From the IMG/VR virus record IMGVR_UViG_3300008116_000002: 64,000 nucleotides of DNA; one strand, 5' to 3'. The DNA comes from a virus (taxonomy: Duplodnaviria > Caudoviricetes). The position numbers were made by a program, and so were the translations under genes. The notes under the pieces are model-generated. The model searched no databases. It was given only the letters and a program-made list of their open reading frames with translations, and was not told the DNA's origin. Of the stretch, positions 15,625 through 16,486 are shown one piece after another (within the stretch, counting starts at the first letter, position 1; each line of letters opens with the position of its first letter).

Positions 15625-15698
15625 TGGGGATTAGTGAAATGGTATCACACCGGATTTTGATTCCGAGGTCGTAAGTTCGATTCTTACATCCCCTGCCA
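15625..15698 (+). tRNA. tRNA-Gln(UUG)
   Basis: Cloverleaf, loop TTTTGAT, CCA. Confidence 0.93.
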
Positions 15699-15730: not shown

Positions 15731-15759
15731 TTGACAAGAAATTGATTCGGTGTTATAAT
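15731..15759 (+). promoter_or_regulatory. Strong sigma70-type early promoter
   Basis: TTGACA-17 bp-TATAAT with extended TG. Confidence 0.88.
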
Positions 15760-15788
15760 TATGATATAATGTAAATAAGGAGATACAA

Positions 15789-15929
15789 ATGCAACGAAAA
15801 CGTATCGCCAAGCCCCGTAACCCGCTGGTGGCTTTGGCATTGTTTAAGAAAGCGGGTAAGCATCAAAAAACAAACAAAGCATTACGTAGGGAATATAGAG
15901 CGGGCATAGCTCAGTTGGTAGAGCAGTAG
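15789..15929 (+). CDS. Small Lys/Arg-rich protein whose stop lies inside tRNA-Lys (46 aa; missed by the ORF track)
   Basis: SD TAAGGAG; MQRKRIAKPRNPLVALALFKKAGKHQKTNKALRREYRAGIAQLVEQ*. Confidence 0.75.
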   Translation: MQRKRIAKPRNPLVALALFKKAGKHQKTNKALRREYRAGIAQLVEQ

Positions 15930-15975
15930 ACTTTTAATCTATGTGTCGTGGGTTCGAATCCCTCTGCCCGTACCA
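15900..15975 (+). tRNA. tRNA-Lys(UUU)
   Basis: Cloverleaf, loop CTTTTAA, CCA. Confidence 0.95.
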
Positions 15976-16056
15976 TATTAAAACACATTTCGAGCGGTGT
16001 TCCGATATCGGCCAGCCCGCCCCAAAGTAGATGTCTAGGGTAGTGTGTTTTAATAT

Positions 16057-16405
16057 GGTGAAGAAGCAAGGTTGGGATTTCGTCAGATAATGACGGTGCG
16101 CTGAAAAAACCCAGTAATGCGAAGCCGAAAGGCATCCTTGCGGTAAGCAGAAAGTTGGCGTGGCGACCAATCATCATAAAGTTCCGGTTACTACTTTCCT
16201 GAAAGTAGCGTATGGTAAACGAGAAAGTCCCGGTGGCTATGGCACCGTTAGCGAGACATAGACTCTGTATTTCGATGCGGTGTCTCCGGTGTCTCAGACA
16301 ACATAGCAACGTGGACACTACGCAGCAAACCGCTATTAGTGTTTGGACAGGGCAACAACTCCAGCATAGGGGCGATCTGTGGAAAGACGTGGCCTAAGCA
16401 AGAAT
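16057..16405 (+). ncRNA. Putative large structured ncRNA B (about 350 nt)
   Basis: Many stems in an AT-rich genome: GCAAGG/CCTTGC, CGTCA/TGACG, GCC-GAAA-GGC, CTACTTT/AAAGTAG, CGGTG/CACCG, GAGACA/TGTCTC with an inner UUCG hairpin; no credible ORF; flanked by tRNAs. Confidence 0.6.
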
Positions 16406-16410
16406 ACGAT

Positions 16411-16486
16411 GGTGTCTATAGTGTAGTGGTCTGCACGCCAGATTGTGGGCCTGGCAGTATGAGTTCAATCCTCATTAGACACCCCA
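16411..16486 (+). tRNA. tRNA-His(GUG)
   Basis: G-1 and C73, loop TTGTGGG, CCA. Confidence 0.9.

What the first reader, a model, noticed from the sequence alone, without database searches (positions are those of the whole stretch)
15731..15975. Early basic peptide whose stop codon lies inside tRNA-Lys: a built-in non-stop mRNA
Seen: consensus early promoter, strong SD and a 46-codon ORF (MQRKRIAKPRNPLVALALFKKAGKHQKTNKALRREYR|AGIAQLVEQ*). Codon 38 begins exactly at nucleotide 1 of tRNA-Lys (15900), and the stop is in the tRNA. Established: RNase P cuts at the tRNA 5' end. The rescue factors ArfA and BrfA are short K/R-rich proteins made from deliberately non-stop mRNAs, so they accumulate only when tmRNA is overwhelmed. 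Inference: RNase P would leave a 37-codon non-stop message, so this may be a phage ribosome-rescue or ribosome-binding factor, or a tmRNA-gated product. Sequence homology to ArfA is not evident by eye.
Basis: partly seen in the sequence, partly recalled or inferred. Interest (0 to 1): 0.8.

Follow-up and report, generated by a model that had tools for sequence, protein, structure and literature searches.

The report
Stop-less basic peptide gene abutting tRNA-Lys
A real, conserved phage gene for a tiny, very basic peptide has no stop codon before the lysine tRNA it runs into; its relatives end in a tRNA, a long hairpin or a terminator instead of a stop, which is the layout of the back-up ribosome-rescue factors ArfA and BrfA and so points to a new, unannotated family of that kind.

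Summary
The ORF is 15789-15929, behind a perfect sigma-70 promoter and an AAGGAG Shine-Dalgarno. Codon 38 starts at nucleotide 1 of tRNA-Lys(UUU) at 15900, and the TAG lies inside the tRNA.

The ORF is a real gene. It belongs to an unannotated family of very basic peptides, with more than 130 clusters at 50% identity. The core is PRNP[LF]V..A.F[KR]KAG.H.K..KA.RR, with N and H invariant. It occurs in phage tRNA arrays and, as a single copy, in about 15% of sampled Burkholderiales genomes.

- **tRNA-Lys members:** in 54 distinct members followed by a tRNA (53 called Lys-UUU), none has a stop before the tRNA. All three frames occur, and stops lie 7 to 242 nt into or past the tRNA.
- **Chromosomal members:** these carry either a covarying 23-bp hairpin or an intrinsic terminator inside the ORF (13 of 40, against 4% of control ORFs). 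They often follow rtcB (11 of 40) or hslVU.
- **ArfA homology:** none is detectable (hhalign probability 0.2%).

Best reading: a programmed non-stop message whose product is gated by tmRNA, probably a new ribosome-rescue factor, with RNase P excision of the tRNA as a new way to truncate the message. The function is untested.

Other agents of this scan reached the same reading on related DNA from other genomes.

The parts
15625..15698 (+). Upstream tRNA-Gln(UUG). Its 3' processing bounds the peptide message on read-through transcripts of the array.
   Evidence: ARAGORN. In 36 of 54 related loci the ORF starts 150 nt or less after a same-strand tRNA, and that tRNA's identity varies.
15731..15759 (+). 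Sigma-70 consensus promoter, TTGACA-17-TATAAT with a TG extension.
   Evidence: 12 of 12 matches. It is kept in the close relatives L001 and L006 but in only 3 of 53 tRNA-Lys-linked relatives overall.
15777..15782 (+). Shine-Dalgarno AAGGAG, 6 nt before the ATG.
   Evidence: Sequence. A Shine-Dalgarno-like site is present in 45 of 53 related loci.
15789..15899 (+). 37 codons of the basic peptide that would remain on the message after RNase P cleavage. They hold the conserved family core.
   Evidence: (N11 and H25 invariant).
15789..15929 (+). Full 46-codon ORF as read on unprocessed RNA. Its last 9 codons and the TAG are tRNA sequence.
   Evidence: Tails of homologues are translated tRNA in any of the three frames.
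15900..15975 (+). tRNA-Lys(UUU). Nucleotide 1 is the first base of codon 38, and the 5' end is the RNase P site that would remove the stop codon.
   Evidence: (71.8 bits). The downstream tRNA is called Lys(UUU) in 53 of 54 related junctions.
15972..16059 (+). Long hairpin that begins with the CCA end of tRNA-Lys. It is a probable 3' processing or termination element of the unit (inferred).
   Evidence: Sequence. Earlier first-reader note e1-5366819.

Best explanation
**What it is.** The ORF encodes a member of an undescribed family of very basic peptides, 37 to 46 residues long. The core is PRNP[LF]V-x-x-A-x-F-[KR]-KAG-x-H-x-K-x-x-KA-x-RR.

**Proposed mechanism.** The gene deliberately lacks a stop codon ahead of an RNA element that forms the 3' end.
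1. In phage and bacterial tRNA arrays that element is tRNA-Lys(UUU).
2. RNase P cuts at tRNA nucleotide 1 (15900) and leaves a 37-codon message ending in AGA with no stop.
3. Ribosomes reaching that end stall with an empty A site.
4. While trans-translation works, tmRNA tags the peptide and it is degraded.
5. When tmRNA is saturated, the peptide accumulates. This could follow phage- or defence-driven RNA cleavage, including tRNA-Lys cleavage.
6. The peptide then acts on stalled ribosomes as a back-up rescue factor, in the manner of ArfA, BrfA or ArfT.

Chromosomal relatives reach the same state with an in-ORF hairpin or terminator. Many sit in an rtcB (RNA ligase) operon, which parallels the PrfH-RtcB rescue-and-repair pair.

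**Shown and inferred.**
- Shown: the gene is real, the family exists, stops are absent before the tRNA, hairpin or terminator, and the rtcB, hslVU and tRNA-array linkage holds.
- Inferred: RNase P truncation in vivo, tmRNA gating, ribosome binding and release-factor recruitment.

**My odds.** Gene real 0.97; non-stop layout is a selected feature 0.75 to 0.8; ribosome-rescue function about 0.45.
For: **Family and coding signal.**
- 13 close homologues and 133 clusters at 50% identity.
- In the core alignment N and H are invariant, and R, V, F, K, A, G, K, K, R are at least 90% conserved.
- The third codon position is the most variable. dN/dS is about 0.18, a figure biased by the search pattern.

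**tRNA junction.**
- 54 distinct cores have a tRNA (53 called Lys-UUU) starting 84-110 nt after the Arg codon.
- None has a stop before the tRNA.
- Frames 2, 0 and 1 occur 22, 17 and 15 times. Stop offsets run from +7 to +242.
- The upstream tRNA varies (Gln, Ala, Gly and others) while the downstream tRNA stays Lys.
- Predicted products are 37-46 residues.

**Other 3'-end elements inside the ORF.**
- Chromosomal Rhodocyclaceae/Burkholderiaceae-type members have a 23-bp hairpin inside the ORF. Seventeen of its pairs show compensatory changes, and the sequences diverge right after it.
- In an HMM-found sample of 40 Burkholderiales loci, 13 have an intrinsic terminator inside the ORF, 19-122 nt after the core and well before the first stop. 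The control is 35 of 807 ORFs (Fisher p = 5e-8).

**Genomic context.**
- rtcB lies on the same strand just upstream in 11 of 40 loci.
- hslVU lies upstream in 5 to 6 loci.
- ArfA is found in 3 of 301 sampled Burkholderiales genomes and the family in 44 of 301, with no overlap.

**Literature.**
- arfA and brfA are made from non-stop mRNA (PMC6299226, PMC6881298).
- ArfT is 40 residues with a KKGGSTNKK tail (PMC6299226); this family has KKAGKHQKTNKA.
- PrfH-RtcB couples rescue with RNA repair (PMC6514570).
- Betaproteobacteria rarely have arfA: 37 of 1000 genomes (PMC11633108).
Against: - **No homology to ArfA.** Pfam and NCBIfam give no hit. A profile search of PDB finds nothing at E up to 10. 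The ArfA HMM does not hit family loci. hhalign gives probability 0.2%.
- **The layout is not universal.** One phage clade ends in a normal TAA that overlaps the next gene's ATG. The RNYLVK clade stops 14-28 nt before other tRNAs. About half of the chromosomal members have ordinary stops.
- **L006 keeps the tail.** It retains only the 5' half of tRNA-Lys yet keeps the same stop and tail, so a tailed 46-residue product is at least tolerated.
- **Frame 2 is the commonest frame.** It gives the shortest read-in, with the stop at tRNA U8-A9-G10. The excess (22 of 54) is not significant (p = 0.25).
- **The exclusive link to tRNA-Lys is unexplained.** A truncation role alone does not account for it, since any tRNA would serve.
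- **ArfB gives only a weak trend.** 21 of 44 family-positive genomes have ArfB against 158 of 257 family-negative ones (p = 0.10).
Confidence: 0.5

Rival explanations
1. An ordinary small basic protein, for instance an RNA chaperone or a cofactor for tRNA or RtcB. Its overlap with tRNA-Lys would be genome compaction in a crowded array. It would be translated co-transcriptionally on the unprocessed precursor up to the stop inside the tRNA, with no role for tmRNA.
For: - L006 keeps the tail and stop after losing the 3' half of the tRNA.
- Several clades have normal stops.
- The frame that stops earliest, at tRNA nucleotides 8-10, is the commonest, in 20 to 22 of 54.
- The rtcB and tRNA-array linkage fits an RNA-handling cofactor equally well.
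Against: - Twelve of 54 members read through the whole tRNA and beyond, and all three frames occur, so the tail is not under selection.
- Compaction does not explain in-ORF terminators 20-100 nt before the stop (13 of 40 against 4% of controls).
- Nor does it explain the covarying in-ORF hairpin in roomy chromosomal loci.
Confidence: 0.25
2. A stress or anti-defence effector tied to tRNA-Lys damage. It could be an inhibitor or decoy for anticodon nucleases that cut tRNA-Lys(UUU) (PrrC, PARIS), or an activator of RtcB repair of cleaved tRNA. The non-stop layout would serve only as a sensor of translational collapse.
For: - The downstream partner is tRNA-Lys(UUU) in 53 of 54 junctions while the upstream tRNAs vary.
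- The gene is linked in an operon with rtcB.
- One chromosomal member lies among Fic, RelE and NACHT genes.
- That PrrC and PARIS target tRNA-Lys(UUU) rests on my own knowledge. I did not check it in a paper here.
Against: - The window has no RtcB, and no nuclease partner is identified.
- hslVU-linked members and members with an ordinary stop lack any tie to tRNA-Lys.
- This reading still needs the non-stop gating, so it is a variant of the best explanation rather than an opposite.
Confidence: 0.15
3. A Lys-codon-rich leader peptide (regulatory uORF) that senses charged tRNA-Lys and tunes transcription or processing of the tRNA-Lys gene behind it.
For: - Seven Lys codons in 37.
- Constant pairing with tRNA-Lys(UUU).
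Against: - The most conserved residues are not Lys: N11 and H25 are invariant, and R10, V14, F19, A22 and G23 are at least 90% conserved.
- Family members thrive without any tRNA downstream, after rtcB or hslU or overlapping another gene.
- No alternative terminator/antiterminator pair is seen between the ORF and the tRNA. They abut with no spacer.
Confidence: 0.07
4. A chance ORF in a stop-poor tRNA spacer; not a gene.
For: Many spurious ORFs cross tRNAs in this array.
Against: Protein-level conservation across more than 130 clusters, a codon-position signal, a conserved Shine-Dalgarno, and single-copy chromosomal homologues.
Confidence: 0.01

Closest known systems
ArfA (alternative ribosome-rescue factor A, YhdL, Pfam PF03889) of E. 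coli and some Beta- and Gammaproteobacteria
   Same: A small, very basic peptide with a hydrophobic stretch followed by a K/R-rich tail. The gene carries an RNA 3'-end-forming element (RNase III hairpin or terminator) before its stop codon, so it is made from non-stop mRNA and gated by tmRNA (PMC6299226). The chromosomal relatives here have exactly such hairpins and terminators. The two families occur in different genomes of the sample.
   Different: There is no detectable sequence relationship and no KGKGSY motif. The family's invariant residues are N and H in PRNP...KAG.H. In the window the truncating element is a tRNA cut by RNase P, which has not been described for arfA. Use of RF2 is untested.
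BrfA (B. subtilis) and ArfT (Francisella)
   Same: These are independent inventions of short basic release-factor-recruiting rescue peptides. brfA is also expressed from a non-stop mRNA through a terminator inside the ORF (PMC6881298). ArfT is 40 residues with a KKGGSTNKK tail (PMC6299226), which resembles KKAGKHQKTNKA here.
   Different: No family match. ArfT is reported not to be regulated the way ArfA is (PMC6299226). ArfT belongs to a broader repeat family (PMC6514570) that Pfam did not match here.
PrfH-RtcB rescue-and-repair module
   Same: A ribosome-rescue gene sits in an operon with the RNA ligase RtcB and responds to RNA damage from biological conflicts (PMC6514570; bioRxiv 10.1101/2021.09.22.461353). 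Eleven of 40 chromosomal family members lie just downstream of rtcB on the same strand.
   Different: PrfH is a release-factor homologue with its own hydrolase domain. This family is a peptide of about 40 residues that could at most recruit a factor.
tRNA punctuation of mitochondrial transcripts
   Same: Excision of a flanking tRNA by RNase P defines the 3' end of an mRNA and can leave it without a complete stop codon (my own knowledge; non-stop mitochondrial mRNAs are discussed in PMC9674279).
   Different: In mitochondria polyadenylation completes the stop codon. Here no such completion is expected, and the lack of a stop would be the regulatory point.

Membership tests
ArfA (PF03889) | Sequence match to the ArfA profile, including the KGKGSY tail motif | tested here: not met
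   No Pfam or NCBIfam hit at E up to 10 for the window peptide and 20 relatives. The ArfA HMM does not hit family loci in 5 genomes. hhalign of the family profile against an ArfA alignment gives probability 0.2%.
ArfA (PF03889) | Gene lacks a usable stop before an RNA processing or termination element (non-stop mRNA) | tested here: met
   Met by gene architecture only. None of 54 tRNA-linked members has a stop before the tRNA. There is an in-ORF 23-bp covarying hairpin and in-ORF terminators in 13 of 40 loci against 35 of 807 controls. No RNA 3' ends were measured.
ArfA (PF03889) | [quoted passage not shown] | not testable with these tools
   Needs biochemistry and genetics.
ArfT / KGG-repeat family | Sequence match to ArfT-like KGG repeats | tested here: not met
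   No Pfam hit of any kind. There is only a loose likeness between KKAGKHQKTNKA and the KKGGSTNKK reported in PMC6299226.
BrfA | Sequence relationship to B. subtilis BrfA | not tested
General family scans gave nothing.
Amino-acid-sensing leader peptide | Conservation confined to the regulatory codons, plus alternative RNA structures before the regulated gene | tested here: not met
   The invariant and near-invariant residues are N, H, R, V, F, A and G. The ORF abuts the tRNA with no spacer. Homologues exist without a downstream tRNA.

The most novel reading that the evidence does not exclude
A new family of tmRNA-gated ribosome-rescue peptides, widespread in phage tRNA arrays and Burkholderiales chromosomes, makes its own message non-stop. 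In the phage version it does this through RNase P excision of the tRNA-Lys gene that it runs into. Rescue of stalled ribosomes would then be wired directly to the tRNA supply and repair modules (tRNA arrays, RtcB) that counter RNA-cleaving defences.
Probability: 0.4. Interest if true: 0.9.

Novelty: new variant of a known kind. Interest (0 to 1): 0.8.

Why it matters
**A missing rescue factor.** Alternative rescue factors (ArfA, BrfA, ArfT) are short, evolve fast and escape homology searches. Most Betaproteobacteria have no known ArfA (PMC11633108). If this family is a rescue factor, it fills part of that gap.

**The layout as a search criterion.** It would also show that the non-stop self-regulation trick arose again, with three interchangeable devices within one family: a tRNA, an RNase III-type hairpin and a terminator. 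That would make the layout itself a usable search criterion for such factors.

**A new regulatory use of tRNA processing.** Making a message non-stop through RNase P processing of a tRNA would be a new regulatory use of tRNA maturation in bacteria and phages.

**A lead for phage biology.** A rescue peptide inside tRNA arrays would add ribosome recycling to the known roles of phage tRNAs in holding translation up against host RNA-cleaving defences. The rtcB linkage suggests a second rescue-and-repair module beside PrfH-RtcB.

All of this can be tested in E. coli with standard ssrA and arfA genetics.

Tried and rejected
- **Cultured-phage DNA searches.** Megablast found nothing, and blastn matched only tRNA-sized pieces of the query, annotated as tRNAs of other kinds. 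tblastn with the peptide found only Acidovorax phage ACP17 and Variovorax phage V45v66, both unannotated at that spot.
I replaced it with a back-translated pattern scan. That pattern biases the sample towards members with the canonical core.
- **PDB profile search:** no hit at E up to 10.
- **Complex prediction** of the Rhodoferax peptide with that genome's RF2: no verdict, score 0.12. This is not evidence either way.
- **ESM Atlas by features:** the nearest clusters are unnamed hypothetical proteins. A mostly viral cluster in which 16% of members carry ArfA appears only at rank 89 with score 0.81, below the level that means anything.
- **AlphaFold2 of the 38-residue core:** two short helices (13-21 and 29-37), mean pLDDT 73. 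It is too small for a meaningful fold search, so I ran none.
- **Metatranscriptome contigs from four studies** do not cover the peptide ORF. A part without cover proves nothing.
- **ArfB co-occurrence:** only a weak, non-significant trend. That tally includes one unpublished genome, G299, which has a sub-threshold match and does not affect the result.
- **Neighbours in the window** show no RNA-repair or translation genes. They are a UDP-glucose dehydrogenase-like protein, a metallophosphoesterase, a D-Ala-D-Ala carboxypeptidase, an RNase H-like protein, AhpC and a CMD-family protein.
- **Weak family hits dismissed as noise:** S21, TacA1, Mitofissin and FliX.

Full report
**1. The observation**

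The window is an uncultured freshwater phage-like contig. It carries 25 tRNA genes between 14385 and 24087 on the + strand. It has no close relative among cultured phages. Its DNA recurs in freshwater metagenomes.

- A 12-of-12 TTGACA-17-TATAAT promoter with a TG extension lies at 15731-15759.
- AAGGAG lies at 15777-15782, followed by the ATG at 15789.
- The 46-codon ORF runs 15789-15929.
- tRNA-Lys(UUU) lies at 15900-15975 (71.8 bits).
- Codon 38 starts on tRNA nucleotide 1, and the TAG is tRNA nucleotides 28-30.

An RNase P cut would leave 37 codons ending in AGA. The product has pI 12 and 13 K+R. Taken alone this could be chance, because many spurious ORFs cross tRNAs in this stop-poor array.

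**2. It is a real gene of an unannotated family**

The word-indexed protein search found 13 homologues. The exhaustive HMMER search found 133 clusters at 50% identity.

A 130-sequence alignment of the core has N11 and H25 invariant. R10, V14, F19, K21, A22, G23, K27, K30 and R33 are at least 90% conserved.

After about residue 38 the sequences lose all likeness. Many tails are recognisably translated tRNA in one of three frames.

Codon-position entropy is 1.30/1.01/1.73 on the codons that my search pattern left free. A Shine-Dalgarno is kept in 45 of 53 relatives.

Pfam, NCBIfam and PHROGs give nothing meaningful. Every named database copy is 'hypothetical protein', in Andreprevotia, Massilia, Pseudoduganella, Ramlibacter, Chitinimonas, Niveibacterium and Undibacterium.

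**3. Where it occurs**

A back-translated pattern of the core found two sets of loci.
- 47 loci in species-representative genomes. Most are Betaproteobacteria, including the isolates Rhodoferax saidenbachensis and Pseudothauera rhizosphaerae.
- At least 117 IMG/VR viral contigs, up to 347 kb long.

An HMM search of 301 sampled Burkholderiales genomes found the family in 44, almost always as one copy.

**4. The junction with tRNA-Lys is conserved and never has a stop**

The loci held gave 119 distinct cores.
- In 54 of them a tRNA starts 84-110 nt after the core's Arg codon. It is Lys(UUU) in 53, and one is called SeC by ARAGORN.
- In none is there an in-frame stop before the tRNA.
- Frames 2, 0 and 1 are used 22, 17 and 15 times.
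- The first stop lies from 7 to 242 nt beyond tRNA nucleotide 1. In 12 cases it lies beyond the whole tRNA.
- These members sit in tRNA arrays with up to 24 tRNAs within 3 kb. Some arrays are in bacterial genome assemblies: L061 (an isolate) and the MAGs L047, L053 and L033.
- The ORF usually fills an inter-tRNA spacer, starting a median of 57 nt after the upstream tRNA.
- That upstream tRNA varies (Gln, Ala, Gly and others), whereas the downstream one is always Lys.
- The predicted truncated products are 37-46 residues.

So the position of the stop is not under selection, while the abutment to tRNA-Lys is.

**5. Relatives without the tRNA use other 3'-end devices**

*In-ORF hairpin.* A chromosomal subfamily in Rhodocyclaceae, Gallionella, Oxalobacteraceae and Burkholderiaceae carries a 23-bp hairpin inside the ORF. 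Seventeen of its pairs show compensatory changes. The sequences diverge right after it, and the stops lie at variable later positions. A helix of that length is an RNase III-type substrate (inference).

*In-ORF terminator.* In the HMM-found, pattern-independent sample of 40 Burkholderiales loci, 13 have an intrinsic terminator (a GC stem plus a T run). It sits inside the ORF, 19-122 nt after the core and well before the first stop. Among control ORFs from the same loci, 35 of 807 have one (Fisher p = 5e-8).

These are the two devices by which arfA and brfA are made non-stop (PMC6299226, PMC6881298).

*Exceptions.*
- One phage clade ends with a TAA that overlaps the ATG of the next gene.
- The RNYLVK phage clade ends 14-28 nt before other tRNAs. 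Its stop lies in the -10 box of a promoter framed by an inverted repeat.
- About half of the chromosomal members have ordinary stops.
- L006 keeps only the 5' half of tRNA-Lys but retains the same stop.

**6. Genomic company**
- In 11 of 40 chromosomal loci the gene lies on the same strand just downstream of rtcB, the RNA 3'-phosphate ligase. It is immediately adjacent in seven.
- Four hairpin-type loci have rtcB 0.6-3 kb downstream.
- Five to six loci follow hslVU.
- One hairpin-type locus lies among Fic, RelE and NACHT genes.
- The window itself has no RtcB, and its neighbours are unrelated auxiliary genes.

The rtcB linkage recalls PrfH-RtcB, where a rescue factor is coupled to repair of damaged RNA (PMC6514570).

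**7. Relation to known rescue factors**

No homology to ArfA can be detected.
- The ArfA HMM misses family loci.
- A profile search of PDB finds nothing.
- hhalign of the family profile against a 15-sequence ArfA alignment gives probability 0.2%.

ArfA occurs in 3 of 301 sampled Burkholderiales genomes, and none of those carries the family. The numbers are small.

ArfB shows only a weak trend: 21 of 44 against 158 of 257, p = 0.10. That tally includes the unpublished genome G299, which does not affect the result.

The likeness to ArfA, BrfA and ArfT is therefore one of design, not ancestry. The shared features are size, charge, a hydrophobic stretch followed by a K/R tail, and the stop-less gene layout.

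**8. Reading**

The best-supported explanation is a programmed non-stop message whose product is gated by trans-translation. It is most likely a back-up ribosome-rescue factor. RNase P excision of tRNA-Lys is the truncating step in the window.

The steps from RNase P cleavage onward are inferred. I found no RNA contig over the ORF, and the complex prediction gave no verdict.

The exclusive pairing with tRNA-Lys(UUU) is not explained by truncation alone. It leaves room for a tie to tRNA-Lys damage. This rests on my own knowledge that anticodon nucleases target this tRNA.

**9. Prior notes of this scan**

After I reached this reading I found that other agents had examined the same family on other genomes. 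They came to the same conclusion (e1-5322415, e1-5322393). That is not independent evidence. The claims they share with this report were all tested here.

Noticed in passing
window 16066-16447 (within the ORF-free spacer 15976-16411 between tRNA-Lys and tRNA-His): RNA contigs with no mismatches, from four freshwater metatranscriptome runs of four studies, cover 16084-16447, 16066-16392, 16127-16370 and 16147-16370. This points to an expressed non-coding RNA of roughly 300-380 nt. No Rfam family matches it at E up to 10. It contains GAGAAAGTCCCGG, which recalls the RNase P RNA CR-I motif, but no RNase P model matches. A spacer of similar length is kept in relatives L008, L010 and L011.
   Followed up: partly
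window 15972-16059: A long hairpin whose 5' arm starts with the CCA end of tRNA-Lys. An earlier first-reader note reports the same kind of CCA-sequestering helix at two other spacers of the array.
   Followed up: no
L069, L074, L082, L085, L091, L095, L097, L168 and others (RNYLVK phage clade), about 90-150 nt after the core's Arg codon: The family ORF's tail runs through an inverted repeat with 14-15 bp arms. The loop and 3' arm of the repeat hold a TTGACA-17-TATAAT promoter for the next tRNA, and the ORF's stop codon lies in the -10 box. This may be an operator-framed promoter or a processing hairpin.
   Followed up: partly
L237, L238, L244, L254, L264 (Undibacterium-type chromosomes): The family gene lies about 100-150 nt downstream of hslU, in an hslV-hslU (heat-shock protease) operon and on the same strand.
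   Followed up: partly
L025, L039, L052 (hairpin-type chromosomal members): Past the hairpin the ORF runs on into what looks like the C-terminal remnant of a TacA-like antitoxin (Pfam TacA1, E = 0.004, below the cut-off). L223 shows RelE, Fic and NACHT neighbours. These loci look like defence or toxin-antitoxin islands.
   Followed up: no
L006 3112-3155: Only the 5' half of tRNA-Lys is left behind the family ORF, up to a degenerate anticodon loop, and it is followed directly by tRNA-Asp. This is a recent deletion inside the array that turned the in-tRNA stop into an ordinary one.
   Followed up: partly
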